Origin: Alphaproteobacteria bacterium
Lineage (GTDB): Bacteria; Pseudomonadota; Alphaproteobacteria; Rs-D84
Length of the DNA: 64,000 bases
NCBI GenBank assembly: GCA_017511715.1
Contig: JAFWJF010000002.1
Location: forward strand, 135,781 to 199,780
Reading direction: 5' to 3'
Below the pieces are notes generated by a model, which saw only the letters and a program-made list of their open reading frames with translations, ran no database searches and was not told the origin of the DNA. Shown in pieces: positions 2,082-54,800 of this stretch (position 1 is its first letter; each line of letters starts with the position of its first letter). Made by a program: the position numbers and the translations under genes.

Positions 2082-2183
2082 CCTTCACTTTTTAATAATA
2101 ATATCAAAAACAGCGTGTTTTAAGCAAGGGTATTTTGCAAAAAAAAGCAAATAAAAAATCTACAGAAGTAGATTTTGTTATTG

Positions 2184-2432
2184 TTAATTTGCAGAAGCGT
2201 CTGTTGAAGTGTGCGCGCGTTCAACAAAAGTTATGCGTCCCTTGTCTAAATCATAAGGGGTCATTTCAACATGTACTTTTTCGCCAACGTTAACCCAGAT
2301 TCTGGCTTTGCGCATTTTTCCGCAAACTGTCGCCAAAATCATGTGTCCGTTTTCAAGGCGAACACGAAACATTGTGTTTGGCAGTCTTTCTTCGACTGTA
2401 CCAGAAAAAACAATTACGTCATCTTTTGCCAT
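2184..2432 (-). CDS. infA: translation initiation factor IF-1
   Basis: Last 82 aa of ORF 2184..2756 read [69 protein letters not shown], the canonical IF-1 S1-like sequence. The upstream 108 aa of the listed ORF are unrelated, so the start is placed at the MAKDD ATG. Confidence 0.85.
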
Positions 2433-2562
2433 AAATAAAACCCTTGTTCGTTGTCTGAGTAATGATATTAAGCACAGAATAAAATTGCAAGAAGTTTTTA
2501 TATCCGCTTGCAAGGTTATGTTTTTTTTGATAAAATAATATAAAAATGTGGGAAGGTTTCTT

Positions 2563-4800
2563 ATGAAAATGATAAAGATTTTGCCGGTTTTATTGGTGTT
2601 TCCATTGGTTGTATATGGGGCTTCTCGTACGGATTCAACTGTTCGTGTTGGTGTTGGACGTAATAACCAAGCGGGCGCAAGGATGCCTGCTATTTCTGGG
2701 GCCGTTGTGCAGGCCGCGTTGGAAAAAATTTCTGTTTCAGGTGGGCAAAAGCCCAAGTCAGAAACAAGTTCTGCGACCGTGGTTGCATCTGTGCCTGTGG
2801 CGACAGCATCTTCTGATGCAACTGTTTCGGCACCGGTTGATGCAGAGACTGTATCAGTTGTGGCAAGTGGTGATTGCAGGGATGCTTATCGTGCGTGTAT
2901 GGACAGTTTTTGTTTGTTGGAAGAAAGCCAGGGTGAAAGATGTGCGTGTTCAGATAATATAGAATACGCAAAAGGTAAGATTAAGACAATTCTTGCCATC
3001 CAAGCAGAAGCAGATAAGTTGTATACAGAAGGTGTTGAACGCGAACAATTGGGTGCAAAAGCCCGTTTGGTGTTTGCAGATAATAATACAAGTACAAAGA
3101 TTTCAAGTGTCGATTTTATGGGGTGGTTGTACGGCGATAAAGAAGATGTTGAAGAAAGTGGTGATGTTGGCGAAGATGTTGAATTAGGGGACGATTTGTA
3201 TCAGATGGCGGTTAAATATTGTTCTGCTGAACTGGATTCTTGTGGAAGCAAGGCCGAAATGGAATCTATGTTGTATTCGCGCATGATAGTCCAAGATTGT
3301 AAGAATTATGATTCTTATTTGGCAGACCAAAAACTTAATGCGGAATCTAATAAGCGCACCGCAGAATCTGCGGTTCGTAAAGCGCGTCTTGAAATGTTGG
3401 ATACAACGAACAAATACAATCGTGGTGAATGTTTGTTGGCGTTTCGTTCTTGTGTTGCAGACAAAGGTGGATGTGGTACGAATTTCGAGAATTGCCTTGA
3501 TAAAAAATTGTTGCAACGTCGTTCAAATGCCTGTGAAAATGTGTTAGACCAATGTATGGCAGTGCGTGATTATGTTATTGAAGATTGGACGGCAGAATCA
3601 AAAAGTATCTTGGCAGAGGCTGAAAAATATGCCGACAAAAACGAACGTTTAACATGTCTGGCGCGTGCACAAAACTGTTTGGAAGAGGGGTGCTCTACAT
3701 CAACAAACGCGGAATGTTTGACCAATGTAAATGTTGCGGCTGGAATCTGTCCTGTAATCACAGAATGTGATGCAAAAATTCCTGGTTTTCAGGCTGTTAT
3801 AAATGATAAATTGGGATATTTACAGATTAAGTTTTGTGAAAATGACATAGATAAATGCTTGCAAGATAAATGTGGTGTTGATTTTACAAAGCCTGAATGT
3901 GTTGGTAAACGCCCGTATGAAATAGCAGCACTTTGTCCCCAGGATATGTTCTCGTCTTGTAAGAATGTCGAACAATACGATATAATTGTACAGGCGGCAC
4001 TTTTGCAGATGGATTATCAAATATTGCAAGGTTGTGTGAATTATTTTGGTGAACAGTTAGGCAAAGTTTGTGGGACAGATATGGCGTGTTTACCGATTGA
4101 TGCAACCGTTGAATCTTTGACAGATTTGCCGGATACAGAAGAGGGTTTGCAAAATTTGCGTAGAACAGTCGTTGCGAATTCTGACGCGGCGGTTGAAGAA
4201 TTCTTTGTTCAATTTGAACAGGATAAGACAGTTGCAGCATGTGCTGATATGCAAAGTGCAGAGGTCGCAAAGAAGAGTTCTGTGAAACTTAAAGATAAAG
4301 AACCTTTGGGGGTAAGTGTGTTTAATACTGCTAAATTGTTGGCAAAAATGGCAGCGGAAAATCGCAATTTGCGTGAACTTGATTCTAAGATAGCGGAAAT
4401 TGCACGCGAAAAAGATTTGGAAGAAGCCAAAAAGATTTGTTTAAGTACATATAAGCCAGAAAAACCAAAAGGTTCAACAGATGACGATTCAGACGAAGCG
4501 AAATCTAATTACAGTTATATACGCACCGTGTCGTTTGAACCTGATTTGCGTAACTGTCATGTTTGTCGCAGACAGCAAGTTTGTGAAGAAGGTGGCGAAT
4601 CTGCAGCGACATCTGCATTGAAAGCGGCGGCGGGTGGTTTGTCTGCCGGGGCGGCTTCTGGAACAATGGTCAGTGCTGGATGGGGAACTGCGATTGGTGG
4701 ACTGGTTGGCGGAATCGGTGGCGCAGTGATGGGCGCAATGTCTGGTGGTAAAAAACAGTTCTGTCAAGAAGTTGAATCTTGTGAAGATATAAATATGTAA
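2563..4800 (+). CDS. Cys-rich secreted protein, CMDxFC-signature family, paralog 2
   Basis: GGAAGG RBS 6 nt before ATG 2563 (the ORF-track start 2548 is a GTG). Signal peptide [24 protein letters not shown]-rich linker, then [27 protein letters not shown]. More than 50 Cys. Tail ...[16 protein letters not shown]... followed by the Gly-zipper segment [42 protein letters not shown]. Confidence 0.7.
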
Positions 4801-4819
4801 AGAAACAAAAGGGAAGAAA

Positions 4820-7285
4820 ATGAGAAAAATATTAGGTTTCGGTTTTTTTGCAAGTTTGTTGGTGGCCTTGGTTGGTGTGGTGGATGCCGGTGCCGCAACA
4901 AAAAATACTGTTGTGAAAAAGCAGGCTGCATTACAGGCCGGAACAAAAGTGCGCACCAGATTAGCACCAACTGGTATTTATGATGAGGCTTGTTATAACC
5001 AATATTTTGGTTGTATGGATCAGTTTTGTATCGTTGATAATGAAAATGGTGGTTCGTGTATGTGCAGTGATGATGCCGCAAAATATGACGAACAGTTGGA
5101 AGCAATAAAAAATACTTTGGTGGAAGCAGAACGTATCAGCACAGAAGAGGTTGAAAAGATTCAAGCGGGGGCCAATGCTGATATTATATTTAATGGCGGT
5201 GAACGTATTTATAACGAAGAGGGTAATGTTGTAAAAGTCGGGGAAAAACCGAAAACACAAGTCACACTTTCGTCGTTTTCGTTGTTTGACACAGAGGAAG
5301 AAGATGTTGACGAATGGGTTGATATTGATTTATCTGATAAGGTAGGAAGGTCTTTGTACAATGCTGCGCATCGTTTGTGTGTTGAACAAATGTCAGAATC
5401 TTGCGACAAAGATATGATGATGCTGACCCAGTTGTATTCTCGTCAAATTATTTCTGATTGCAAGGGTTTGGCAAATTCCATTGCGCAAAAGAAACAAGAA
5501 GCGGATAGTATTTTAGCGAAAGCAAAGGCGGCGGTGCGCGGTGCATTGAAAGAAAGTTTTGAAGAAGCCAATAAATATGATCGCGGAACATGCATGGTTG
5601 AATATAAAAAATGTATGCGCAGTGAAGATGCTTGTGGGGCAAATTGGGAAAATTGTGTCTTTACAATTGCCTCTGAAAACATGCAAAACAATGCTGCAGA
5701 AAGCGTTGCCGGAACAAAAGTTGATACGATTAACACATATGATATAACCGCATCGACAATGGAAATATTAGAATCTAAACGTTTTATCTGTGAAAAAGTT
5801 TTAGATAATTGTATGGCGGTTCGTAATTATGTTTGGAATGATTTCTTGCGTGAATCTGCGCCAACAATTCGTTTGGCAGAACAAAATATAGAATCACAAA
5901 AACGTCAATCGTGTTTAAGCGATATTTCAGATTGTATCCAAAAGGCATGTAAAGATGATATCGTTGGCAAAGGCGAAGCAACAATGGATGCATGTCTTGC
6001 CCGTCCAGATATGGCACGTTCGTTCTGCAAAATTCAAATTGATCCATGCGAAAGAATGGAACCTCAAATTTGGGATTATGTAAAATCTAAATTGGCGGCA
6101 ATGCGTGTTGATGTTTGCACCCAGGAAGTTAAAGATTGTATCACGGATGAAAACAGATGCGGCAAAGATTTTATGAATTGTATTGGTATGGATTTCAAAT
6201 ATATTCATGATATGTGCCCACTTGATAAATTAGTGGTCTGCAAACAGGCAAACCCAGATTTCCAAATGTCTGATTTAGATTCTATGTTAATGGGGCTTTA
6301 TTTGAATATTGATAACAAGGCACTTGAAAACTGTGAAAATCTGGCAGAAATGAAAATGGCGGAATTATGTGGGTCAACAACAGATTGTAATGTTTTTGCC
6401 GCAGATGAATATCTGGGGACAAATTCAATCAGGTCCCAAAAAGACGGCAGTATATATCGTGTGACAGGTATGATTTCATTTGGTTCAATAAAGATGGGTA
6501 ATGCCACAGGCAGTGTGAAAGATAACGGCAAAGTTTTGTTGCCTGGTGAAATTGGAGTCAAAGATTATATCAGGGAAGTTAAAAAGAATAATAGAAGTGT
6601 AGAAAATGCCGATGCGATAATATCTTCGATTGAAGAAGAATTGAATAATATCGAAGGAACAATTAACAGGGCAATATCTTTGATAGAATCAGATCAACAA
6701 ATACAATATTGTATCAATGGTCGTGATTTATCTCAAATCAATGGTCAAAAAGCGAGTGCAAGAAATACAACAACGGCAAGATTCCCGAATTTGTTAAACC
6801 AGTATCGTGTGATTATTGGTATGGCTGCATTACGCAAGGCGCAAGATAACTATAACAAAAAAGTAAATGAAGAAATAGCGGAAGCCGCCAGAAATTCTTC
6901 TGTAGATCTTGCACAATATTTGTGTCAGAGAATTGCGGATGCAGGTTCAACATCCAGTAGGGATAACAAAATTATTGATGAAACGCCGTTGACCCCACCA
7001 TATGCGATATCTTATGATGTCGGTTCGGGGCTTAGCACAAAAGATTTGATTGCAAATGGTGCTGGCACTTCGGTAAAGACATCCGGTGTTGGTGGTGGTG
7101 AAACGGGAACTAGTATAAGCACACTTGTTAATGCGTCATTTGACCGCGAAAAAAGAAATTGTCATATTTGCCGTACTATAACAGCGGAAGCGTGTTCGCG
7201 CAAAGGTGGCAGTTGGTTCCGTACACGTGATATTAATTGTAAAACTGATGTTCATGAACCAAATTGTGAAGATGTCAAGATGTAG
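4820..7285 (+). CDS. Cys-rich secreted protein, CMDxFC-signature family, paralog 3
   Basis: Starts 20 nt after the stop of paralog 2, so likely co-transcribed. Signal peptide, then CYNQYFGCMDQFCIVDNENGGSCMCSD. Shares blocks with paralog 2: LYSR.I..DCK, RG.C....C.....CG.N.ENC, CMAVR.YV. C-terminal motif ...KRNCHICRT... Confidence 0.7.
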   Translation: MRKILGFGFFASLLVALVGVVDAGAATKNTVVKKQAALQAGTKVRTRLAPTGIYDEACYNQYFGCMDQFCIVDNENGGSCMCSDDAAKYDEQLEAIKNTLVEAERISTEEVEKIQAGANADIIFNGGERIYNEEGNVVKVGEKPKTQVTLSSFSLFDTEEEDVDEWVDIDLSDKVGRSLYNAAHRLCVEQMSESCDKDMMMLTQLYSRQIISDCKGLANSIAQKKQEADSILAKAKAAVRGALKESFEEANKYDRGTCMVEYKKCMRSEDACGANWENCVFTIASENMQNNAAESVAGTKVDTINTYDITASTMEILESKRFICEKVLDNCMAVRNYVWNDFLRESAPTIRLAEQNIESQKRQSCLSDISDCIQKACKDDIVGKGEATMDACLARPDMARSFCKIQIDPCERMEPQIWDYVKSKLAAMRVDVCTQEVKDCITDENRCGKDFMNCIGMDFKYIHDMCPLDKLVVCKQANPDFQMSDLDSMLMGLYLNIDNKALENCENLAEMKMAELCGSTTDCNVFAADEYLGTNSIRSQKDGSIYRVTGMISFGSIKMGNATGSVKDNGKVLLPGEIGVKDYIREVKKNNRSVENADAIISSIEEELNNIEGTINRAISLIESDQQIQYCINGRDLSQINGQKASARNTTTARFPNLLNQYRVIIGMAALRKAQDNYNKKVNEEIAEAARNSSVDLAQYLCQRIADAGSTSSRDNKIIDETPLTPPYAISYDVGSGLSTKDLIANGAGTSVKTSGVGGGETGTSISTLVNASFDREKRNCHICRTITAEACSRKGGSWFRTRDINCKTDVHEPNCEDVKM

Positions 7286-21839: not shown

Positions 21840-21942
21840 ATATGCGCATGTATTATATACATTTTATTTCTTTTTTCAAATAAATAATTTCTATTAAATT
21901 TGGGAATAAAATCAGAGTGTTTTATTAAATGTGTGTTTGACA

Positions 21943-21971
21943 ATAATGTGTTTATGCTTTAACATCCTTTG
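21943..21971 (+). promoter_or_regulatory. sigma70-type promoter (TTGACA-N17-TAACAT) for the autotransporter gene
   Basis: TTGACAataatgtgtttatgcttTAACAT, with an AAAGGAGAG RBS before ATG 21997. Confidence 0.5.
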
Positions 21972-21996
21972 TGAGATAAGCAAAGGAGAGCACATC

Positions 21997-24900
21997 ATGA
22001 AATTATCACGAACTGCATTGAAAGAATTAACCGCCGCGTATCGCGCCGTTTTGCGCCATGGTATTTTGTGTAACGCGATTGCATTGGGCTTGGTCGCCGT
22101 ACCAGCAATGGCAGAGCGTCTTGCCATTGAAGGTGGAAATCCCATAACAGAAACAGATAAGGTGTATTCTAATAATTCTGGTCAAACGTTTGGTGGCGGA
22201 ATTGATAATTACGGCGGTAATGTGACCGAAATAAATGTGACAATTCAAGGTAATGCTGCGAACCGTGGTGGTGGTGTTAATAATGATGGTGTTGCAATAT
22301 TTAATGGTGGCTTGATTGGTGGCACAACAGCAGGACTTGGTAATCAAGGCAGTGGCGGTGGTGCTATAGCGAACACGGGTACATTAACAATAAATGGTAC
22401 CACGATACAAAATAATGTTGCCACAAATTATGGTGGTGGCATATATAATTCTTTGAATGCTTCTGGTACTTCGGCGGCGATGGTGTCTGTTAGCAACGCC
22501 ACGTTGAAAGGTAATTCTGCCGGTCAGTTTGGTGGGGCTATATATTCTCAGGGTACAAAAGATATTGTTACTGGGGCTTTGAATATCACAACATCGAATT
22601 TCTTTAACAATTCTGCGGCAAATACAAAAGCCGGCGGTGCGATATACTTGCTTGACAGTGGTAATGTGACAATCAAGGGGGCTAAGTTTGGTGGATATGA
22701 TGAAACAGACCCGGAAAATCCGATATCGTTGGGTAATACAGCAGGCAAGGGGGGCGCCGTTTATATCGGGGGTGTAAATGCCCCAACACATGGCGAAGCT
22801 ACGGTTACTATTACCAAAGATGAATCAAATAACAAGACAATCTTTGATCATAATGTTGCCAATGGCGCAGGTGCAGAAGGATATGGTGGGGCGCTAGTCC
22901 ATAATGGATATAAAACATTTTTAGATTTAAGCAATGCAGAATTCACAAACAATAGCGCGACAAATCAAGCTGGCGCATTGTTGATTAGTGTTACCGCGGG
23001 CACGTTGCGGGCTGATGGTTTAGCAGCAGGAATAAATAATGTTTTGTTTGCAAATAATACGTCTGCGGGTCAGGGCGGTGCCATGTGGAATGGTGCTGTG
23101 GCAATGATTACCAATACAGAATTCAACAATAATTCAACCACAGGCAATGGCGAAGGTGGTGGTGCGGTCGATTTGGGTGCAGTATCAAAAACAGCATTTG
23201 ATAATGTAACATTTACAAGTAATACAGCTGCATCATCTGGTGGTGCAATCGCAACACGCAATTTTAGTTCAGGACAAAATGCCAATGCAAAATTGGATAT
23301 TTATAGTACGACATTCAAGGGTAATTCTGCGGCAATGAACGGTGGTGCAATTTATAATAATTTCTATAACAGTATCGGACATACCGGTTCGGTTTATGTA
23401 AGCGGGGCAACATTTGGTGGTACTGGCACGGGCGAAGGCAACAGTGCTGCAAATGGTGGGGCGATTTATAACAATGCAGACGGAACGCAAACTGGTAATA
23501 TGTACATCACTAATTCGACATTTACCGGCAATTTCGCAGTGGTTCCTGATACATATACTGGTGCGACTTATAAGAAAGAAGGCGTTGGTGGTGCAATTGC
23601 TTCGTCAGGCAGTTTGACAATCAATGCTTCAACATTTACTGGTAATACAGCGCGTACAACAGGTTCTGGGTGGGGACTTGGTGGGGCGCTTTCAACCGTT
23701 ACAGTTGATGGCTTTGCCACAGACATGACCATTATTGGTTCAACGTTTACCGGTAACAGTGCAGATGTTGGTGGTGCCGTTTATGGCATGCTTAAAGCAA
23801 CAAATCAACATGGTTTAAGCACTATAACGATTTCTGGTTCTACATTTGAAGGCAACAGTGCGCAGGCTGGTTCTGCAATAGCAAACTTTGACATAATGTC
23901 AGTTTCGGATACCACATTTTCAGGTAATACAACATTTAATATCGATGATGGTGGTACGGTGTTCTTGGGGTCTGAATCTATTACATCATTTACCGGTGGC
24001 GATTTTACTGATAATGAATCAAACACTGTTGGTGGCGCAATCGCAACACGTAGCATAAATAACGATAACTCTTATGCAAAGTTAGATATTGTTGACACAA
24101 CATTCAAGGGTAATTCGGCTGGCACAAATGGTGGCGCAATTGATAACAATTTCTATGACAGTGTCGGGCATGCTGGTTCTGTTTATGTAAGCGGTGCAAC
24201 ATTTGGTGGTACTGGTACAGGCGAAGGTAACAGTGCTGCAAATGGTGGCGCGATTTACAATCATGCAAACGCGACCCGAACGGGTAGTATGTATTTAACA
24301 GGTGTCAATTTCTTTGGCAATACTGCGACAACTGCTGGTGGTGCCATATATAATGAAGGCGTTATAACTTTGGCGGCGGATAATACATTTAAGAATATTA
24401 AAGCAGGTGGTGTTGCAAACGATATTTATAATGATGGGACGTTGAATATCGCATCTGGAACGACAACGTTGGATGGCGGTGTTACTGGTAATGGAACGTT
24501 GAATATTGCCAGTGGCGCAACATTGAATATCGGAAGTGCAACTGTTTCACAGGGAACCATCAATTTGGGCGGAACTTTAATTGCTGATTTAGTGAGTGGC
24601 GCAGACCCAATCTTTACGGCAACGACATTTGAAGGGACTGGTAATTTAAGTTTGGCTATTGAAAAGGAAGGAACTTATAATTTGTTTGGTAATGCTGTGT
24701 TTGCAAATGCACAACAGCAAATAACCAGCACGTTTTATGATTTAGATTGGACAACAAATGATGGCAAAACCGTTATAGCAACCAAGAAATCTGCTGATAA
24801 AATTGCAGAAGAAACTGGTTTAACAACAGAATCTGCTGTGGCTGTTTCGCATATCGTGGATGCCGGCTCATCAGATACAGGAACAAAACAGATAAAGGAA

Positions 24901-25914
24901 TTGTCTGTGGCTGTTCAGGAAAAATTAGCGTCTGGAAATACTGCTGCGATTGAACAAGCAACCAAGGCGGTGCATCCAGAAAAAGAAGCGGTCGTACAAT
25001 CTGTTTCTGCATCTGTTCAACATGCGGTTGTTAATTTGGCGGCAAATCGTATGTCAATGCCAAGAACAAGACGTGTTATGCCAGCGCATAATTATTATGG
25101 CAACGTTTATGGGCGCAATGGCGGTGATGTGAATTTTACTTCTGGCGGTATTTGGGCGCAAGGTTTGTTTAATAAATCTAGGCAGCATGATGCATTCAAT
25201 GGTTATACGCGTGGAATCGCGTTTGGATTGGATGGGACAATCAACAGGCATTGGACAATTGGTGCGGGGTATTCGTATGCTCATTCTGATATAGATGGAA
25301 CTGCGCGTAATACTGAAATTGATTCTAATACATTGTTCTTGTACGGTCAGTATAAACCTGCACAATGGTATGTGAATGCAATCGCGAATTATACAATGTC
25401 TGATTATTCTGAAATTGGAACGATTATTGATGATAAAACGATATTTGCAGACTATAAAGTTAATTCGTTTGGTGGCGCGTTGGCAACAGGATATGATTTC
25501 AGAAATGGCATAACCCCAGAACTTGGGTTGCGCTATATACATGTCAGTGCTGATGATTACGCAAATTCGTATGGTGTAAAAACACATATGGATGATAATG
25601 ATTTCTTGACAGGGGTTATCGGCGCAAAGTACGCATTTAATGTGGATGTGTCCAGACACACAAAAATCATGCCACAACTTAATGCGGGCTTTAAGTATGA
25701 TTTGTTGTCTGATAAACAAATTGCCACAGTTGCGATGCCGGGGATAAATGCTTATACAATCGAAGGGAATCGGTTGAACCGTATCGGAGGCGAATTTGGT
25801 ATCGGGTTAGGTATGCAGTATCGTACTTTGGAAATGTCTGTTAATTATGACATCGATGTCCGTGAAGATTATACTTCCCAGACAGGTATGTTGAAATTCA
25901 GATATAATTTCTAA
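21997..25914 (+). CDS. Pmp-like autotransporter (polymorphic-membrane-protein-type passenger with GGA[IV]/FxxN repeats, C-terminal beta-barrel)
   Basis: Extended signal peptide MKLSRTALKELTAAYRAVLRHGILCNAIALGLVAVPAMA. More than 20 GGAIY/GGAIA motifs and FTGN/FKGN/FEGN/FSGN motifs. C-terminal ~280 aa has alternating hydrophobic residues and ends ...KFRYNF. Confidence 0.8.
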   Translation: MKLSRTALKELTAAYRAVLRHGILCNAIALGLVAVPAMAERLAIEGGNPITETDKVYSNNSGQTFGGGIDNYGGNVTEINVTIQGNAANRGGGVNNDGVAIFNGGLIGGTTAGLGNQGSGGGAIANTGTLTINGTTIQNNVATNYGGGIYNSLNASGTSAAMVSVSNATLKGNSAGQFGGAIYSQGTKDIVTGALNITTSNFFNNSAANTKAGGAIYLLDSGNVTIKGAKFGGYDETDPENPISLGNTAGKGGAVYIGGVNAPTHGEATVTITKDESNNKTIFDHNVANGAGAEGYGGALVHNGYKTFLDLSNAEFTNNSATNQAGALLISVTAGTLRADGLAAGINNVLFANNTSAGQGGAMWNGAVAMITNTEFNNNSTTGNGEGGGAVDLGAVSKTAFDNVTFTSNTAASSGGAIATRNFSSGQNANAKLDIYSTTFKGNSAAMNGGAIYNNFYNSIGHTGSVYVSGATFGGTGTGEGNSAANGGAIYNNADGTQTGNMYITNSTFTGNFAVVPDTYTGATYKKEGVGGAIASSGSLTINASTFTGNTARTTGSGWGLGGALSTVTVDGFATDMTIIGSTFTGNSADVGGAVYGMLKATNQHGLSTITISGSTFEGNSAQAGSAIANFDIMSVSDTTFSGNTTFNIDDGGTVFLGSESITSFTGGDFTDNESNTVGGAIATRSINNDNSYAKLDIVDTTFKGNSAGTNGGAIDNNFYDSVGHAGSVYVSGATFGGTGTGEGNSAANGGAIYNHANATRTGSMYLTGVNFFGNTATTAGGAIYNEGVITLAADNTFKNIKAGGVANDIYNDGTLNIASGTTTLDGGVTGNGTLNIASGATLNIGSATVSQGTINLGGTLIADLVSGADPIFTATTFEGTGNLSLAIEKEGTYNLFGNAVFANAQQQITSTFYDLDWTTNDGKTVIATKKSADKIAEETGLTTESAVAVSHIVDAGSSDTGTKQIKELSVAVQEKLASGNTAAIEQATKAVHPEKEAVVQSVSASVQHAVVNLAANRMSMPRTRRVMPAHNYYGNVYGRNGGDVNFTSGGIWAQGLFNKSRQHDAFNGYTRGIAFGLDGTINRHWTIGAGYSYAHSDIDGTARNTEIDSNTLFLYGQYKPAQWYVNAIANYTMSDYSEIGTIIDDKTIFADYKVNSFGGALATGYDFRNGITPELGLRYIHVSADDYANSYGVKTHMDDNDFLTGVIGAKYAFNVDVSRHTKIMPQLNAGFKYDLLSDKQIATVAMPGINAYTIEGNRLNRIGGEFGIGLGMQYRTLEMSVNYDIDVREDYTSQTGMLKFRYNF
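23241..23520 (+). repeat. internal ~280-bp direct repeat, copy 1, inside the autotransporter passenger
   Basis: Encodes ATRNFSSGQNANAKLDIYSTTFKGNSAAMNGGAIYNNFYNSIGHTGSVYVSGATFGGTGTGEGNSAANGGAIYNNADGTQTGNMYIT. Near-identical at the nucleotide level to 24034..24313. Confidence 0.75.
24034..24313 (+). repeat. internal ~280-bp direct repeat, copy 2
   Basis: Encodes ATRSINNDNSYAKLDIVDTTFKGNSAGTNGGAIDNNFYDSVGHAGSVYVSGATFGGTGTGEGNSAANGGAIYNHANATRTGSMYLT. Confidence 0.75.
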
Positions 25915-43792: not shown

Positions 43793-44138
43793 AGGGGGCA
43801 AAACAATGATAAGAATATATTTAATTATTTTGGTATGTGCGCTTTTTGCTGGCGCATATTTTTATGGCGAAAATCGTGGCGTATCAAAATGCCAAATAAA
43901 AAATCTGGAAAGTCAAATTGAAAAAACAGAACAAATTCAACAAAACAAAAGGAATCTGGATGATAAAGTTTATAAGACTGGGGTGCGTGATATTCGTGAC
44001 ATCTTGCGCGCTAAATACACAATCGCACAATAGTATGCAATGCGATTGTGATGTGATATATGGTCGTGAATCTGATTGGGAAAATATAAGCGATGATTTG
44101 GCGCGGAACATTTACAGGCATAATCTTAAATGCGAAAA

Positions 44139-44978
44139 TTAAGCAAAAGTTTTTGCGACCTTTTCAATTAATTCCCGGACGATATCGGCAGATTGCATAT
44201 CGCCATTTGGCGCATATTCAACAAACTCAAAATTTATTGCGTCACTAAACTCTTGGATAAAAGCGCGTGCAAATTCAACTGATAGCCCGTTTTGTTCCGG
44301 CACCCATACATCGCGGAAGTATTTCGGATCGATTCCATCAAAATCAAAAGATACAATAAATTTTTTTGTGCCGATGCGATTGCGAACTTCGTTAAATGCT
44401 TTGTCCCAATCGGCTTTTGTTTCAAGTTGTGCAGGTGTGCGGAAAAAGATATTGTTATCTTTGACATATTTCATTTCTGATGGTTCGCAAGAACGCGTGC
44501 CGAAAAAGAATATATTCTCAGGTTTTAACGCAGGTTTTTTGTGTTGTAATGACAGCCAACGCGAATCGCCTTCGCCCAAAAGATGTCGAACATTTGTTCC
44601 GTGTGGCGCGCCAGATGCTTCCCTTATAGATGATTCAGGGGTATGAATATCAAGGTGCGCATCAAAATAAACCAAACATAAATCTTCGTTTGGGTATTGG
44701 TCTGCAATACATGCAAAATGAGAAAAATTCACACTGTGGTCTCCACCAACAAAAATGTGTTTTTCGTGTGGGGTGTTATTATAAATTTTTTTATGAATAT
44801 TAAAAGCGTCACCAAATCTGTCGGTGATTGAATCAGGGTTAACATTATCTGGTGTGATAATTGTCCATGTTGCGTTTGGAAACATTTGTTGAATTGCGCG
44901 TGGTGCCAATGCCGGACCGCCGTTCAAAACCTTCGCGGTTGCGCCGCGACTGTATTCTATACCAAGGAATTTAATCAT
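44139..44978 (-). CDS. arginase-family hydrolase (agmatinase/formiminoglutamase-like)
   Basis: Ureohydrolase motifs FVGGDHS, VYFDAHLDIHTP and SFDFDGIDP. Confidence 0.75.
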   Translation of the reverse strand: MIKFLGIEYSRGATAKVLNGGPALAPRAIQQMFPNATWTIITPDNVNPDSITDRFGDAFNIHKKIYNNTPHEKHIFVGGDHSVNFSHFACIADQYPNEDLCLVYFDAHLDIHTPESSIREASGAPHGTNVRHLLGEGDSRWLSLQHKKPALKPENIFFFGTRSCEPSEMKYVKDNNIFFRTPAQLETKADWDKAFNEVRNRIGTKKFIVSFDFDGIDPKYFRDVWVPEQNGLSVEFARAFIQEFSDAINFEFVEYAPNGDMQSADIVRELIEKVAKTFA

Positions 44979-45876
44979 TATAACTCTCTATTACACTTTC
45001 TGCTGCATCTTGTATTTTTTGCAGACTTTTTTCGTAAGTTTCGCAATCGCGCGCAATCTCAGATTTATATGCATCGCGTAGATTTGATGCCATATAATAA
45101 CATGCACGCAGGTGCTGTGAACAATATTGATGACCGGTATTAAAGGCGTTTTGTCCGCGAACACGGCTTTCTGTATTTGCCCATTCGATATTTAGTGCAT
45201 TATCAATGTTTACCCATGGGTTATCGCCAGTTTGTACACCAACGGTTTGGTCCCAGTATTCTTTTATTTCTTCACTGGTTGCAGAAGATGAGTATTTCAA
45301 TCGAACAATCTTTTCGATTAATTCTTCTATTTTGTTTTTATACTTGGCATCAATTTGCGCCAGTTTTGCACTGCAATAGCAACGATTATAGGCGGTGTCT
45401 TCGCGTTTGCAATAATCTTCCATGCATTCTTTGTAATCTGCCATACACCGTTGGGAAGACGGACGTTCTGTTGCTGTGTAATAATTATTTGTTGTGGTGC
45501 GTGCCGTATTGACATTTCTGACACGTACAGGTGCAGTTGCTGCACGATAATTTATATTTGTGCCCGGTGTAAAAGGATTTGCCGCACGTGCTTTTGTATT
45601 TGTTCGTTGGACAACACGGCGTGGTTGTTGGGTCTGTGTATTTGGTGTTGTTTGTACCATTACGCCTGAACGAGGAACGACGGCGCGTCTGGCACTTGCT
45701 GTTGTGGCAGATATGTTCTTGGCGTTCGTATTCGTTTTAGTATTGTTTAACACATATGGATAAACATCATTGTGTGAAGTAATGGTGTTAAACTTTTTAG
45801 GAACATAACTATCAACAGCTGTTGCGCTTGTAGCAACCAAGACAGAAACCACGAAAAAGAAAAATCCTTTCTTCAT
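44971..45876 (-). CDS. Cys-rich secreted protein, CMDxFC-signature family, paralog 4
   Basis: Signal peptide MKKGFFFFVVSVLVATSATA, T/N/R-rich linker, then CMADYKECMEDYCKREDTAYNRCYCSA. Start 45876 chosen over 45957, which would overlap the upstream gene. Confidence 0.6.
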   Translation of the reverse strand: MKKGFFFFVVSVLVATSATAVDSYVPKKFNTITSHNDVYPYVLNNTKTNTNAKNISATTASARRAVVPRSGVMVQTTPNTQTQQPRRVVQRTNTKARAANPFTPGTNINYRAATAPVRVRNVNTARTTTNNYYTATERPSSQRCMADYKECMEDYCKREDTAYNRCYCSAKLAQIDAKYKNKIEELIEKIVRLKYSSSATSEEIKEYWDQTVGVQTGDNPWVNIDNALNIEWANTESRVRGQNAFNTGHQYCSQHLRACYYMASNLRDAYKSEIARDCETYEKSLQKIQDAAESVIESYND

Positions 45877-45920
45877 ATTTTGTATTCTAGTGTTTTTGAT
45901 ATAAATAAACAAGCACATTT

Positions 45921-46961
45921 TTATCTGTATAATGGTTCGGTTGGTCGAACATGGCAACCGTTTTTGCGTTTAAGTTCAATCGCGTTTTTATATCCGCGAC
46001 TGACAGCGCCTTTATAGCGTTGCTGTGCTACTTTTTGTAAAAAGGCATCACGTTCGTTTAACCAATCATTATGTATGTCGCCTTGATAATTATTTACAGC
46101 CCGTATCATTTCAGAATCGACAGATGATGTTTTCTTAGGAAGCCCTAGAAAAGTTCTAAATTGTTGTAATGCCGTGCCAGGACCACTGGCCATGCCGGCC
46201 AAGAATACATCTGTGGCAATAACGTCAGGTAAACGTTCGAAACCATAGGGTTTCCAGTATTTTTCATAATAGACAGTTTCTGCCTCTGCGCGTGAATTTA
46301 CCCGAACGCCTGCACATTGTTTTCCAGAACCGATGCCATAACAAGTATAACCGCAACGGTCGTTTTTTATTGTTCCACATGCGCCTTCTTTTCTGAATAT
46401 AGTAATCAAGCCTTTTTCCAGGGCAGGGTGTATTTTTTCATATTTTCCCGTGGTCAAAATTGTGTTTGTAAAATTATTGTCGCGTGCTGCAGGATAGCAC
46501 GAACCGCCGACTATAAAATTATTTTCAATCACATCGCCACCACCAATCGTTCTTCCAGAAAAGTGTGATGGTTGCTGTTGACCGGTTTGTGTTGGCGAAG
46601 GGAGTGTCGGGCCTGGTGTGGTTTGTGTGCCGGCTTGTGTGGTATGGCATATTTTTGTATCGTCAGGATATTTTGCACAGTAGGTATCGTGTGGCAGGTT
46701 TTGCCTGTCGCTTTCTTGTTGTTTCTGTTCTTGGTCCATTTGGTCAATGATACGGTCAGTGTAAACTTCTTCGCCTGGGACGATATTTAATTCTTGATAT
46801 GCCTTTTTATCAAGCAATGGTTTGTATCCTTCGCGTGCAATATCAATGCGTGCTTTGAAAGACATATCTTGAAAAGTTCCCGGAAACGATGCCACAGACA
46901 ATTTTCCCTGTGCGGGGCTGCACAGGACAAATAAACAAGCAAGATAAAAAATCTTTTTCAT
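45921..46961 (-). CDS. secreted GH108-family muramidase-like protein with peptidoglycan-binding C-terminal domain
   Basis: Signal peptide. FRKEGACGTIKNDRCGYTCYGI aligns to the GH108 catalytic block (L.HEGGYVNDP.DPGG.T.YGI). ...YYEKYWKPYGFERLPDVIATDVFLAGMASGPGTALQQFRTFLGL matches the PG_binding_3 region. Confidence 0.55.
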   Translation of the reverse strand: MKKIFYLACLFVLCSPAQGKLSVASFPGTFQDMSFKARIDIAREGYKPLLDKKAYQELNIVPGEEVYTDRIIDQMDQEQKQQESDRQNLPHDTYCAKYPDDTKICHTTQAGTQTTPGPTLPSPTQTGQQQPSHFSGRTIGGGDVIENNFIVGGSCYPAARDNNFTNTILTTGKYEKIHPALEKGLITIFRKEGACGTIKNDRCGYTCYGIGSGKQCAGVRVNSRAEAETVYYEKYWKPYGFERLPDVIATDVFLAGMASGPGTALQQFRTFLGLPKKTSSVDSEMIRAVNNYQGDIHNDWLNERDAFLQKVAQQRYKGAVSRGYKNAIELKRKNGCHVRPTEPLYR

Positions 46962-52518: not shown

Positions 52519-52548
52519 AAAATGCCCGATTGGGCATTTTTTATTTGT
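52519..52548. terminator. bidirectional rho-independent terminator
   Basis: AAAAATGCCCgattGGGCATTTTTTA. Confidence 0.7.
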
Positions 52549-53626
52549 TTGTTAATTGTAATTCAATTCGGCGATTAAGTTGCATGCTTTTTGCATCTTT
52601 GCCTTGGGCAATCGGGTACATGTCCCCAAAACCAGATGGAATCAACCTTTGTACGGAAACGCCATTTTTTATCAATTCGTCTGCGACAGATGCCGCGCGC
52701 AACAATGATAATTGCATGTTATTCCAATAGGCTTTTGTCCCGGGAATAACAAGTCTGCTGTCGGTATGTCCGTCAATACGAACAATCCAATCAATATCTT
52801 TTGGAATTTTGTTTTCCAAGCCTTTGATAAGGTCTGCCAGTATTTTTATCTGTTTTTTTCCGGCATTAGATATTTTATAAGAACCACTGCCGAACAAAAT
52901 ATCGCTTGATAATATAAATCTGTCACCTTCTGGTTTTATGCCCGTGGTTTCGCCCTGTCCCAGTGCGGTTTTTACTTGCTTGTAAAAATCTGATTGGTAT
53001 TGAGCCAACGAATTTAATTCTGCCACTTTTTCCGCAAGTGCTTTGTTTAACCGATTTGACATTTGCGTATATTCTGTTTCTTGTTCTTTGGCCCGTTGTT
53101 CTGCCGCGCGAAGTTGGCTTTCTAATTCGGTGATACGGGCGTTCAATTCAGACTGTTTTTTACTCATTTCATCATTAAGTTCGTGACGTTCAGATTCCAG
53201 TCGTGCCATTTCAGTCTTTGCCGCGTTTGCCAATTGCAGTTGTTCTGTTAACGCTGCGATTTGTGCCGCCAGTTGTTCTTGTTGAACGGTCAAGGCACTG
53301 ATTTGGTCTTCATAGGCATTCGCCAGTTTCATTTGGTTTTCTATTTGTCCTTCTTGGTTTTCCAGTGCATCACGCGCCGCCAGTAATAATTGTTCTGCTT
53401 CCTGTTTATCGGCGTTCATTTGTTCGATTTGTTCAGCCTGGGCTTGTTTTGCTTGTTCCAATTCAGCAACTTTCTTTGCACCGGTGTTTTTATTAAATAC
53501 ACTGGTTGTTGTCCACAAGAACACAAATACGATAAGCAAGAATATTAAAATGATAACCAGGTTAGAAAACAAATCTACAAACCCTGGCCATGCGTTAGTT
53601 CTTTCTTTGAATCGAGTGTTTAACAT
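52541..53626 (-). CDS. MotB/OmpA-like stator subunit with ~200-aa periplasmic coiled coil
   Basis: N-terminal TM LVIILIFLLIVFVFLW, a long Q/E/A-rich coiled coil, and a C-terminal OmpA_C-like domain ...IVRIDGHTDSR...QLSLLRAASVADELIKNGVSVQRL... Confidence 0.65.
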   Translation of the reverse strand: MLNTRFKERTNAWPGFVDLFSNLVIILIFLLIVFVFLWTTTSVFNKNTGAKKVAELEQAKQAQAEQIEQMNADKQEAEQLLLAARDALENQEGQIENQMKLANAYEDQISALTVQQEQLAAQIAALTEQLQLANAAKTEMARLESERHELNDEMSKKQSELNARITELESQLRAAEQRAKEQETEYTQMSNRLNKALAEKVAELNSLAQYQSDFYKQVKTALGQGETTGIKPEGDRFILSSDILFGSGSYKISNAGKKQIKILADLIKGLENKIPKDIDWIVRIDGHTDSRLVIPGTKAYWNNMQLSLLRAASVADELIKNGVSVQRLIPSGFGDMYPIAQGKDAKSMQLNRRIELQLTNK

Positions 53627-53651
53627 TGTTTTCCCTCTCTCTTTTTATTTT

Positions 53652-54800
53652 TTAATTGTTTGTTTTGAACAAATAATCGATTGCTGTTCCAATGTATCTG
53701 GAATAAGCATCAAAAAGTTGTCTGTCTTTCTTGGTCTTTGGCAAAGTATTTGGGTGCGCCATTAAGTATTGATGCAGGGCGTTGGTGTTGTTAAAACGTG
53801 TAATGCCATCGCCTAAATCTATATTTTTCCCAGAAACACAAATTATTTTCAGGTTGATATTTACGCCTTCTAATGTATCGGCAAAGCATAATTCGATGCG
53901 TTTCAGAACATTTTGTAAAACGTCTGCATCGTTATTAAGTGTCGCGATAAACATTTTTTCACCCGAACCAATTGCAACAAGTGCAGGATATTTTCCGTCA
54001 ATTCTTATCAAATCACGAACAACATATTTGGCATCTATGAATGCATCGTGAATCTGGGAAATCTTGGTGAAAGTATCCGCGCTTACAGGTGCGCTTTCTG
54101 CGACTTTTGCTATATTTATGTTGTTCGTTGGGTTTTGCAATACGTATTGCGACATGAAATCAGTTAATTCTTGGAATATTGTATTTTGTGCAAACTGTAA
54201 TTGCAGCCCAAGAAAGCCCACCACCAAACTTCCTGCCAGACCAAGCAAAGAACTGGTGAACGCGGTTGCCATACCTGATAACGGTCCCGCCATGGCGATT
54301 TGCATGTTTTGCAGTAATTCTGGGTCATCAAAATCGATAGCCATCAATAATTCTGCGAAGCCACCAACCGTCACAATCAGTCCCCAAAATGTGCCAAGCA
54401 GACCTAAGAATATTAAAGTATTTGTTATATATCGCACAGAATCACGTTTGTCTTCGATTCGGATGCTGACCAAATCAAGCAGTTCTGACATGGTGTTCGT
54501 TGTAATATGTATATGGCGGTTGTGTAATGCCATTGAAATAGGGCGTAATAATTTCGGGGTATATCCGTAATCTGCGCGACCTGCGAAATATGCGTGCAAC
54601 CACTTATATTCCGGCAAAAGCCCAAACATGCTTAAAAAACAAAGCCCGATTCCAAACAAGGTTGTGCCAATAATGATTCCGTTCAATATAATATTAGTTA
54701 TCGCGATATTGAATACTGTCTGCCAGAAAACCACCGCAAAAGCCAGCAAAACTGCGGTAAATATCGACATTATGTTAAGATTTCTGTGAAATCGTTTCAT
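53652..54800 (-). CDS. MotA/TolQ/ExbB proton-channel family protein with extra C-terminal ~150-aa domain
   Basis: TM helices and ...LGLLGTFWGLIVTVGGFAELL..., ...AMAGPLSGMATAFTSSLLGLAGSLVVGFLGLQL (MotA/ExbB signature), followed by a soluble C-terminal region. Confidence 0.65.
   Translation of the reverse strand: MKRFHRNLNIMSIFTAVLLAFAVVFWQTVFNIAITNIILNGIIIGTTLFGIGLCFLSMFGLLPEYKWLHAYFAGRADYGYTPKLLRPISMALHNRHIHITTNTMSELLDLVSIRIEDKRDSVRYITNTLIFLGLLGTFWGLIVTVGGFAELLMAIDFDDPELLQNMQIAMAGPLSGMATAFTSSLLGLAGSLVVGFLGLQLQFAQNTIFQELTDFMSQYVLQNPTNNINIAKVAESAPVSADTFTKISQIHDAFIDAKYVVRDLIRIDGKYPALVAIGSGEKMFIATLNNDADVLQNVLKRIELCFADTLEGVNINLKIICVSGKNIDLGDGITRFNNTNALHQYLMAHPNTLPKTKKDRQLFDAYSRYIGTAIDYLFKTNN

What the first reader, a model, noticed from the sequence alone, without database searches (positions are those of the whole stretch)
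44971..46961. Fourth CMDxFC-family member adjacent to a secreted GH108-type muramidase
44971..45876 (-) encodes signal peptide, T/N/R-rich linker and CMADYKECMEDYCKREDTAYNRCYCSA, the same signature as the 1..7285 array. It lies immediately downstream of a secreted protein (45921..46961) whose C-terminal half aligns to the GH108 lysozyme-like catalytic block plus a PG_binding_3 domain. GH108 proteins are commonly associated with secretion machineries and phage. This is a co-oriented pair of a peptidoglycan remodelling enzyme with a Cys-rich exported protein.
Basis: partly seen in the sequence, partly recalled or inferred. Interest (0 to 1): 0.55.

Follow-up and report, generated by a model that had tools for sequence, protein, structure and literature searches.

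The report
Muramidase beside orphan cysteine-rich exported protein
A real cell-wall-cutting enzyme gene lies next to a real exported cysteine-rich protein of an uncharacterised family in a small-genome gut bacterium, but related genomes usually separate the two genes, so the pairing looks like local gene order and not a working unit.

Summary
45921..46961(-) encodes a signal-peptide protein with a GH108 muramidase domain. It passes Pfam's cut-off, keeps an invariant Glu-x8-Asp-x4-Thr catalytic triad as in Brucella SagA, and its model matches SagA and NMB1012. 44971..45876(-) encodes an exported protein. Its C-terminal 160-residue, 8-cysteine helical domain is homologous to the N-terminal module of the three giant paralogs at 1..7285. 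PG_binding_3 is only weakly supported.

The genome is an uncultured reduced-genome gut alphaproteobacterium (order Rs-D84, Candidatus Enterousia-like). In other species, GH108 lies directly upstream of the cysteine-rich gene in 7 of 65 loci. The upstream neighbour is otherwise variable. The downstream side is conserved: an arginase-family gene follows in 50 of 78 loci (an 8-nt overlap here), and rho lies within 6 kb in 59 of 63. GH108 orthologs also occur in unrelated contexts. The window holds no secretion machinery or phage genes.

Best reading: a housekeeping periplasmic autolysin and a lineage-specific envelope protein, probably co-transcribed here without a conserved functional link. The cysteine-rich domain has no Pfam, NCBIfam or PDB relative, and the short form carries conserved RRVVxR repeats. 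That unnamed family is the more interesting part. Overall interest is modest.

The parts
45921..46961 (-). Gene for an exported GH108-family muramidase (346 aa). By residue: signal peptide 1-19 (nt 46961..46905); conserved N-terminal module about 20-105 (46904..46647); P/T/Q-rich linker about 106-138; catalytic region 139-260 with E192, D201 and T206 (46547..46182); helical C-terminal domain 261-346, equivalent to the peptidoglycan-binding domain of SagA (46181..45924).
   Evidence: ORF. Pfam PF05838. PDB sequence matches. AF2 model (pLDDT 75-92 over most of residues 160-330, and 54-62 over the catalytic loop, about residues 190-220). Foldseek against PDB. Invariant residues. N-terminal module shared with other proteins. 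PHROG endolysin family E = 4.7e-12.
45877..45920 (-). 44-nt AT-rich spacer between the GH108 stop codon and the start of the cysteine-rich gene. It has no terminator-like hairpin. A weak promoter-like site (45957..45929) lies just upstream, inside the 3' end of the GH108 gene.
   Evidence: The number of promoter-like sites in the region is at chance level (14 found, 11.4 expected).
44971..45876 (-). Gene for the short-form CMDxFC-family protein (301 aa). By residue: signal peptide 1-20; conserved N-terminal motif 21-50 (PKKFNTITSHNDVYPYVLNN); basic disordered linker 51-139 with RAVVPR (64-69) and RRVVQR (86-91); 8-Cys helical domain 140-301 (nt 45459..44974; Cys 144, 151, 156, 166, 168, 252, 259, 278).
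   Evidence: AF2 model (domain pLDDT mostly 83-97, residues 1-135 below about 52). Composition. RRVVxR repeats. No PDB sequence match, and no significant PDB fold match.
44139..44978 (-). Arginase/ureohydrolase-family gene (279 aa, no signal peptide). Its ATG overlaps the stop of the cysteine-rich gene by 8 nt (ATGATTAA), so it is probably the last gene of the same transcript. The metal-site motifs GGDHS, DAHLD and SFDFDGIDP are present.
   Evidence: It follows the cysteine-rich gene in 50 of 78 related loci.
1..2084 (-). Long CMDxFC paralog, cut by the window edge. It has a signal peptide, an R/T/S-rich linker, and then the same 8-Cys module (CRDAYFTCMDQFC...).
2548..4800 (+). Long CMDxFC paralog (750 aa) with the 8-Cys module at residues about 106-270, further cysteine-rich regions and a glycine-zipper-like C-terminal stretch.
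4820..7285 (+). Long CMDxFC paralog (821 aa) with the 8-Cys module at residues about 56-232.

Best explanation
Two separate envelope proteins are encoded side by side and are probably transcribed together with an arginase-family gene. They do not form a dedicated functional pair.

(1) The 346-aa protein is a Sec-exported periplasmic autolysin. An N-terminal module of about 85 residues, which occurs in other envelope proteins of these bacteria, is joined by a flexible P/T/Q linker to a T4-lysozyme-like GH108 domain. That domain would cleave the MurNAc-GlcNAc bond of the cell's own peptidoglycan using Glu192, Asp201 and Thr206. A helical domain equivalent to SagA's peptidoglycan-binding domain follows. 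The catalytic loop carries three extra invariant cysteines, which probably staple it with disulfides.

(2) The 301-aa protein is the short, widely conserved member of a lineage-specific family of exported cysteine-rich proteins. It has a conserved N-terminal docking motif, a strongly basic disordered tether with two or three RRVVxR motifs, and an acidic helical bundle with 8 cysteines (four possible disulfides). The giant paralogs at 1..7285 carry the same bundle at their N-termini. It most likely acts as a structural or tethering component of the cell envelope.

Shown: the ORFs, the homologies, the invariant residues, the predicted folds and the synteny statistics. Inferred: export, enzyme activity, disulfide formation, co-transcription and the envelope role.
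For: - **GH108 identity and intact active site:**. The triad and its spacing are as in SagA (Glu17/Asp26/Thr31; PMC8334348).
- **Family membership of the cysteine-rich protein:**. The domain family has 726 clusters at 50% identity, all unnamed proteins of uncultured Alphaproteobacteria.
- **Predicted structure:** a confident helical domain behind a disordered N-terminal half.
- **Linker:** pI 12.0 against 5.1 for the domain. RRVVxR-type motifs occur at least twice in 141 of 150 short-form proteins (two sets: close homologs sharing 55-100% identity, and cluster representatives), but in only 9 of 93 long paralogs.
- **Against coupling, seen from the cysteine-rich gene:** GH108 is directly upstream in 7 of 65 loci and within 3 kb in 9 of 65. 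Close relatives (72-73% identity) have RmlC or NUDIX genes there instead.
- **Against coupling, seen from GH108:** its orthologs sit beside LpxB, prepilin peptidase, MacB, MiaB or RmlC in other genomes.
- **Conserved side of the locus:** arginase follows in 50 of 78 loci, and rho lies within 6 kb in 59 of 63.
- **Surroundings:** housekeeping and envelope genes only.
- **Host biology:** members of this order keep peptidoglycan synthesis genes (RodA, MreB, MrdA) despite genomes under about 1 Mb (PMC12306168).
Against: - Adjacency or near-adjacency of GH108 and the short form recurs in several lineages down to about 42-55% GH108 identity, sometimes with one or two genes inserted or in divergent orientation (L012, L017, L025, L098, L104, L113).
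- In another lineage (L084, L086, L107) a long paralog of the same family lies 1-2 genes from GH108. By contrast, the roughly 1.1 Mb of flanking DNA around the short form in 80 species holds no second family member. This hints at some family-level association that the explanation does not account for.
- No expression data, enzyme assay or localisation data exist.
- The envelope-structural role of the cysteine-rich protein rests only on its architecture.
Confidence: 0.6

Rival explanations
1. The two proteins are a functional pair. The cysteine-rich protein regulates, inhibits, anchors or is a substrate-site partner of the muramidase. This would resemble the SagA-PhiA arrangement in Brucella, where a small periplasmic protein is reported as the inhibitor of a GH108 autolysin.
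For: - The genes are co-oriented with a 44-nt spacer and no terminator.
- Adjacency is kept in 7 loci, with spacers of 26-71 nt in the five where my ORF calls gave a clean gap, and in metagenome loci L090, L092, L094/L095 and L121.
- Loose linkage persists in more distant lineages (L098, L104, L113).
- A long paralog lies near GH108 in L084, L086 and L107.
- There is a precedent in the SagA-PhiA system (PMC8334348).
Against: - Most genomes that have the cysteine-rich gene lack GH108 within 8 kb upstream.
- The cysteine-rich gene keeps its place next to arginase and rho whether or not GH108 is present.
- It is all-helical and matches no inhibitor family (PliC/MliC, which includes PhiA, is a beta-barrel fold).
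- Purified PhiA itself did not bind or inhibit SagA (PMC8334348).
- The remaining linkage can be explained by the stable gene order of reduced genomes.
Confidence: 0.15
2. The CMDxFC family forms a disulfide-cross-linked protein layer of the envelope, working like the chlamydial cysteine-rich outer membrane complex. The GH108 enzyme is the dedicated peptidoglycan-opening activity for installing it.
For: - Four family members lie in 64 kb, three of them 700-820 aa with dozens of cysteines.
- All have a signal peptide followed by a basic or S/T-rich linker.
- The genome is reduced and gut-associated.
- An autotransporter with Chlamydia PMP repeats is encoded in the same window.
- GH108 lies near two different family members in two lineages.
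Against: - There is no sequence or Pfam relation to chlamydial OmcA/OmcB.
- All 8 cysteines of the module could pair within the domain.
- These bacteria keep a peptidoglycan synthesis machinery.
- The GH108 link is patchy.
- Nothing shows intermolecular cross-links or a surface location.
Confidence: 0.1
3. The locus is a remnant of a phage lysis cassette or of a secretion-system accessory locus. GH108 would be the endolysin or the specialised lytic enzyme of that machine.
For: - GH108 matches the PHROG endolysin family phrog_315 (E = 4.7e-12).
- The 75-aa gene at 43806..44033 matches an Rz-like spanin family (E = 1e-6).
- Characterised GH108 relatives such as SagA and TtsA serve secretion systems (PMC8334348).
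Against: - tblastn finds no match to any of 50,697 phage records.
- No holin, structural, integrase, T4SS or T6SS genes are in the window.
- The protein has its own Sec signal peptide and an N-terminal module specific to this lineage.
- Its orthologs are chromosomal in many species, in housekeeping contexts.
- The spanin-like gene stays with rho in nearly all loci whether or not GH108 is present.
Confidence: 0.04

Closest known systems
Brucella abortus SagA (PDB 7DNP), Neisseria NMB1012 (2IKB/2IS5) and Salmonella TtsA (6V40): GH108 muramidases with a C-terminal PG_binding_3 domain
   Same: The two-domain core is shared: a T4-lysozyme-like hydrolase domain with Glu-x8-Asp-x4-Thr, followed by a helical domain. 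The family profile matches SagA at E = 1.4e-10 over SagA residues 5-146. Foldseek aligns 169 columns against the 174-residue SagA chain, with target-normalised TM 0.61.
   Different: - It has a cleavable signal peptide, where SagA has a C-terminal membrane anchor.
- It has an extra conserved N-terminal module and linker of about 170 residues.
- Three invariant cysteines lie inside the catalytic loop, and others are at positions 155 and 336.
- The C-terminal domain is too diverged for the Pfam PG_binding_3 model.
- No secretion system is encoded nearby.
Brucella PhiA and the PliC/MliC periplasmic lysozyme inhibitors
   Same: These are small exported proteins. PhiA was reported as the inhibitor partner of the GH108 enzyme SagA (PMC8334348).
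   Different: PhiA, PliC and MliC are eight-stranded beta-barrels. The protein here is a disordered basic tether plus an all-helical 8-Cys bundle. It has no Pfam or PDB match, and its gene usually occurs without GH108 next to it.
Chlamydial cysteine-rich envelope proteins (OmcB/OmcA)
   Same: The resemblance is only in general design: Sec-exported, with a basic N-terminal region followed by a cysteine-rich body, and several paralogous cysteine-rich proteins in a small-genome, host-associated bacterium. This comparison rests on my own knowledge of OmcB, not on a test made here.
   Different: No detectable sequence similarity (no Pfam hit). The fold is helical. Cross-linking and surface exposure are untested.
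Unnamed 'hypothetical protein' family of uncultured Alphaproteobacteria (for example MCL2537932.1 and MDR1207315.1)
   Same: These are true homologs. They share the signal peptide, the N-terminal motif, the RRVVxR repeats and the C-terminal 8-Cys domain.
   Different: None in kind; the window protein is an ordinary member. The family has no curated model and no described function.

Membership tests
Glycoside hydrolase family 108 (Pfam PF05838) | A match to the family model above the curated cut-off | tested here: met
   E = 2.5e-8, 34.8 bits against a cut-off of 21.2, residues 187-260 covering model positions 3-85 of 85. All 22 orthologs match.
Glycoside hydrolase family 108 (Pfam PF05838) | A catalytic Glu, Asp and Thr in the alpha1-alpha2 loop with T4-lysozyme-like spacing (SagA Glu17/Asp26/Thr31) | tested here: met
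   E192, D201 and T206 have the same +9 and +5 spacing and are invariant in 22 orthologs. The reference residues are from PMC8334348.
Glycoside hydrolase family 108 (Pfam PF05838) | The fold of solved family members | tested here: met
   Foldseek against PDB: SagA 7DNP E = 5.4e-4, TM (target) 0.61; NMB1012 E = 2.6e-3; 2NR7 E = 0.14. The model is of moderate quality, with mean pLDDT 66.5 and low confidence in the catalytic loop.
Glycoside hydrolase family 108 (Pfam PF05838) | N-acetylmuramidase activity on peptidoglycan | not testable with these tools
   This needs purified protein and a muropeptide analysis.
PG_binding_3 (Pfam PF09374) | A match to the domain model | tested here: not met
   No hit at E <= 1 for the window protein. 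Only 1 of 22 orthologs hits, at E = 0.17.
PG_binding_3 (Pfam PF09374) | A helical domain after the hydrolase domain that aligns with the peptidoglycan-binding domain of SagA or NMB1012 | tested here: inconclusive
   The alignments continue into that domain: to NMB1012 residues 15-157 of 167, to SagA residues 5-146 of 182, and over 169 columns by Foldseek. However, the substrate-contact residues were not checked.
CMDxFC 8-Cys domain family (unnamed; defined here) | Eight cysteines in the pattern C-x6-C-M-[DE]-x-[FY]-C-x9-C-x-C-S ... C-x6-C ... D-C, with homology over the whole roughly 160-residue module | tested here: met
   All 8 Cys and 9 other columns are invariant across the short form and the three long paralogs. 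HMM E = 2.7e-87. BLASTP E = 9e-8 and 3e-6.
CMDxFC 8-Cys domain family (unnamed; defined here) | Short-form architecture: signal peptide, N-terminal motif, linker with RRVVxR repeats, domain at the C-terminus | tested here: met
   RAVVPR is at residues 64-69 and RRVVQR at 86-91. Of 150 short-form proteins, 148 have at least one such motif and 141 have at least two. The N-terminal motif is kept in distant members.
Periplasmic lysozyme inhibitors (PliC/MliC/PhiA) | An MliC/PliC beta-barrel domain | tested here: not met
   No Pfam hit to any inhibitor family. The predicted structure is all-helical. No PDB sequence or fold match.
Phage lysis cassette or prophage | An endolysin flanked by holin, spanin and other phage genes, with similarity to phage genomes | tested here: not met
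   The neighbours are housekeeping and envelope genes. tblastn against phages finds no match. The Rz-like 75-aa gene stays with rho whether or not GH108 is present.
Secretion-system-associated GH108 (SagA or TtsA type) | A type IV or toxin-secretion locus in the genomic neighbourhood, or a functional dependence on one | tested here: not met
   No such genes are in the 64-kb window or in the ortholog contexts examined. Some orthologs lie near a prepilin peptidase.
Arginase/ureohydrolase family (Pfam PF00491), for the third gene | A match to the family model and the metal-binding motifs | tested here: met
   E = 6.8e-32. NCBIfam arginase and agmatinase models match below their equivalog cut-offs, so the substrate is undefined. 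GGDHS, DAHLD and SFDFDGIDP can be read in the translation.

The most novel reading that the evidence does not exclude
The CMDxFC proteins (the short rho-linked form plus the giant paralogs) build a disulfide-stabilised protein scaffold in the envelope of these reduced-genome gut alphaproteobacteria. The short form would be tethered by its RRVVxR repeats. The cysteine-stapled GH108 autolysin would be functionally tied to this scaffold, either opening peptidoglycan for it or being positioned or restrained by it. That would explain why GH108 turns up beside two different family members in different lineages.
Probability: 0.1. Interest if true: 0.6.

Novelty: new variant of a known kind. Interest (0 to 1): 0.3.

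Why it matters
The muramidase is a recognisable GH108 enzyme, and its presence is unsurprising. It is one of probably few cell-wall hydrolases in an organism with a genome under about 1 Mb, and its cysteine-stapled catalytic loop and extra N-terminal module are minor variants.

More useful is the definition of an uncurated domain family. It has about 726 clusters at 50% identity, and all are 'hypothetical protein' in uncultured Alphaproteobacteria. It has an invariant 8-cysteine helical module and no structural relative. It occurs in two architectures, and the short form is a conserved gene next to rho with a conserved RRVVxR linear motif.

These proteins are probably major envelope components of a poorly understood, uncultured gut lineage (Rs-D84, Candidatus Enterousia). 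They could bear on how these bacteria attach to or interact with partners. The specific claim of a muramidase and cysteine-rich protein pair does not hold up as a conserved unit.

Tried and rejected
- **PG_binding_3 by Pfam:** no hit, so the domain is described only as SagA-like by alignment.
- **NCBIfam for both proteins:** nothing meaningful.
- **Cysteine-rich protein against PDB sequences:** no hits even at E <= 10.
- **Foldseek of its model against PDB:** only generic helical bundles, best E = 0.28, so no fold assignment was made.
- **Prophage or lysis-cassette origin:** rejected (and the window annotation).
- **Lipoprotein status of GH108:** rejected, because the cysteine in the signal peptide is not conserved in orthologs.
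- **The longer TTG-started ORF for the cysteine-rich gene (44971..45957):** rejected in favour of ATG 45876. That start gives the signal peptide directly and matches the ortholog N-termini.
- **Promoter and terminator scan:** not informative. Promoter-like sites are at chance level.
- **A second copy of the GH108 N-terminal module in the window:** none found.
- **More than four family members in the window:** none found at E <= 1e-3.
Full report
**Source and setting**

The window is chromosomal DNA of an uncultured alphaproteobacterium. The exact proteins occur on rumen and gut metagenome contigs and in an NCBI MAG named 'Alphaproteobacteria bacterium'. The nearest genomes are Candidatus Enterousia and related MAGs. 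These belong to order Rs-D84, whose members have genomes of about 0.7-1.0 Mb, keep RodA, MreB and MrdA, and lack respiration (PMC12306168).

The rest of the window holds housekeeping and envelope genes. These include PFOR, GroEL, FtsH, TilS, enolase, LptB/LptC, rho, ribosomal proteins, two M23 peptidases, CtpA, OmpA-like proteins, SodC and an autotransporter with Chlamydia-PMP repeats. No secretion-system or phage genes were found.

**Checking the observation**

Both ORFs are as described, on the minus strand. The quoted motif string is present.

A regular-expression scan of all six frames finds the core C-M-[DE]-x-[FY]-C in four ORFs: 1..2084(-), 2548..4800(+), 4820..7285(+) and 44971..45876(-). 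There is one further, unrelated hit.

The relationship is true homology, not a shared short motif:
- Residues 142-296 of the short protein align with the N-terminal modules of the long ones (E = 9e-8 and 3e-6).
- All eight cysteines align and are invariant.
- A domain HMM picks out exactly these four ORFs in the window.

So the short protein consists of the N-terminal head module of the giant paralogs, placed behind its own linker.

**The muramidase**

- Pfam GH108 is matched above the cut-off by the window protein and by all 22 orthologs tested.
- A profile of the ortholog family matches Brucella SagA at E = 1.4e-10, NMB1012 at about 5e-9, and TtsA weakly.
- The AF2 model has mean pLDDT 66.5. 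The C-terminal two domains score mostly 75-92, apart from the catalytic loop.
- Foldseek finds SagA, NMB1012 and the P. gingivalis 'secretion activator' as the only meaningful PDB matches. The alignment covers nearly all of SagA.
- SagA's catalytic residues are Glu17, Asp26 and Thr31 (PMC8334348). The window protein has E192, D201 and T206 with identical spacing, and they are invariant across orthologs. An active enzyme is therefore likely.

Features specific to this lineage:
- a Sec signal peptide;
- a conserved N-terminal module (FPxTxxDxSFxxR...GYxPFxDxxAY), which recurs inside 300-700-aa unknown proteins of related genomes;
- a P/T/Q-rich linker;
- invariant cysteines at 195, 203 and 207 inside the catalytic loop, and at 155 and 336.

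The Pfam PG_binding_3 model does not detect the C-terminal domain, although the alignments to SagA and NMB1012 run through it.

**The cysteine-rich protein**

Orthologs are abundant: 817 clusters at 90% identity match at E <= 1e-3, and every one that carries a name is a 'hypothetical protein'.

A profile of the domain finds 726 clusters at 50% identity in 1.84 billion representatives. They fall into two architectures: short (about 300-430 aa, domain at the C-terminus) and long (700-1100 aa, domain near the N-terminus). The named members are all from uncultured Alphaproteobacteria or 'Rickettsiales' MAGs.

The parts of the window protein are:
- **Signal peptide.**
- **N-terminal motif:** about 25 residues, recognisable even in distant members.
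- **Linker:** 89 residues, pI 12.0, predicted disordered. It is not featureless. Of 150 short-form proteins examined, 148 have at least one and 141 have at least two R-x-V-V-x-R hexapeptides. Here these are RAVVPR and RRVVQR. Long paralogs rarely have them.
- **8-Cys domain:** acidic (pI 5.1) and predicted with high confidence as a helical bundle. It has no PDB sequence match, no significant fold match, and no Pfam, NCBIfam or PHROG family.

**Is the pair a unit?**

I fetched the locus from 80 other species and annotated the neighbours by tblastn, HMM search and clustering.

| Neighbour of the cysteine-rich gene | Loci with it | Loci with enough sequence to judge |
|---|---|---|
| GH108 directly upstream | 7 | 65 |
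| GH108 within 3 kb upstream | 9 | 65 |
| Arginase-family gene directly downstream | 50 | 78 |
| rho within 6 kb downstream | 59 | 63 |

Otherwise the upstream neighbour varies: RmlC, NUDIX, tRNA genes and many others. This is true even in relatives sharing 72-73% identity.

Seen from GH108, orthologs at 45-57% identity lie beside LpxB, an ABC transporter, prepilin peptidase, GcrA, MacB or MiaB. Among 34 metagenome loci, only a minority have the short form next to GH108 (L090, L092, L094/L095, L121) or nearby (L098/L119, L113, L104).

In this window the arginase-family gene overlaps the cysteine-rich gene by 8 nt, and the three genes have no terminator between them. They are therefore probably co-transcribed. 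This arrangement is a feature of one sub-lineage.

**What remains unexplained**

GH108 lies within one or two genes of a different, long family member in L084, L086 and L107. Loose GH108 and short-form linkage reappears in distant lineages. Meanwhile the flanks of the short form in 80 species contain no second family member.

With only a handful of independent contexts, and with the stable gene order expected of reduced genomes, I treat this as a lead and not as evidence. It keeps the functional-pair and envelope-scaffold readings alive at low probability.

**Verdict**

The inferred partnership is not supported as a conserved feature, and nothing ties the locus to secretion machinery or phage.

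The most likely picture is a housekeeping periplasmic autolysin next to a lineage-specific, disulfide-stabilised envelope protein. The unnamed 8-Cys family, with its RRVVxR-bearing short form, is the part that deserves a family description and experimental follow-up.

Noticed in passing
window 43806..44033 (+): This 75-aa protein has an N-terminal membrane helix and a coiled coil, and sits immediately downstream of rho. It matches the PHROG Rz-like i-spanin family phrog_1026 (E = 1e-6, covering 72 of 85 model positions). It is conserved next to rho in nearly all related genomes, whether or not GH108 is present.
   Followed up: partly
window 44139..44978 (-): An arginase/ureohydrolase-family gene with intact metal-binding motifs overlaps the stop of the cysteine-rich gene by 8 nt (ATGATTAA). 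It follows that gene in 50 of 78 related loci, so it is a better conserved partner than GH108. Its substrate (arginine, agmatine or other) is undefined, because all NCBIfam equivalog cut-offs are missed.
   Followed up: partly
window 46647..46904 (-); L084:9417-11258, L086:10684-11637, L107:10425-11333, L116:3823-5949, L123:2448-4127: The N-terminal module of about 60-85 residues in the GH108 protein (FPxTxxDLSFxxR..GYxPFxDxKAY) also occurs inside unknown 300-700-aa proteins. In L084, L086, L107 and L116 these are encoded a few genes from the GH108 ortholog, and in L084 and L086 also near a prepilin peptidase and GcrA. It may be a shared targeting or anchoring domain.
   Followed up: partly
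window 46341..46388 (-), GH108 residues 192-207: The catalytic loop reads E-G-A-C-G-T-I-K-N-D-R-C-G-Y-T-C, with Cys195, Cys203 and Cys207 invariant in orthologs. In canonical GH108 proteins these positions are Gly or other residues. This suggests a disulfide-stapled, possibly redox-sensitive, active-site loop.
   Followed up: no
window 45603..45687 (-), cysteine-rich protein residues 64-91: Conserved R-x-V-V-x-R hexapeptides (RAVVPR, RRVVQR) lie in an otherwise low-complexity basic linker. They occur two or three times in almost all short-form orthologs but rarely in the long paralogs. They look like a short linear binding motif with an unknown partner.
   Followed up: partly
window 21931..25914 (+): A 1327-aa autotransporter has a C-terminal beta-domain and Chlamydia polymorphic-membrane-protein repeats.
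   Followed up: no
L084:7125-7442, L086:7175-7492, L103:1888-2202, L116:1452-1766 (all -): Where GH108 orthologs lie in the LpxB and prepilin-peptidase context, a convergent gene for a conserved 105-aa exported protein with 6 cysteines always follows them. This is another small cysteine-rich neighbour of GH108, unrelated to the CMDxFC family.
   Followed up: no
L088:2805-5258 (+): In another lineage an 817-aa exported protein lies two genes upstream of GH108. It has 52 cysteines in CxxC/GCC-like repeats and is unrelated to the CMDxFC module.
   Followed up: no
window 52541..54800 (-): A pair of envelope genes: a 382-aa protein with weak MotA/ExbB similarity, and a 361-aa coiled-coil protein with an OmpA-like C-terminal domain.
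   Followed up: no
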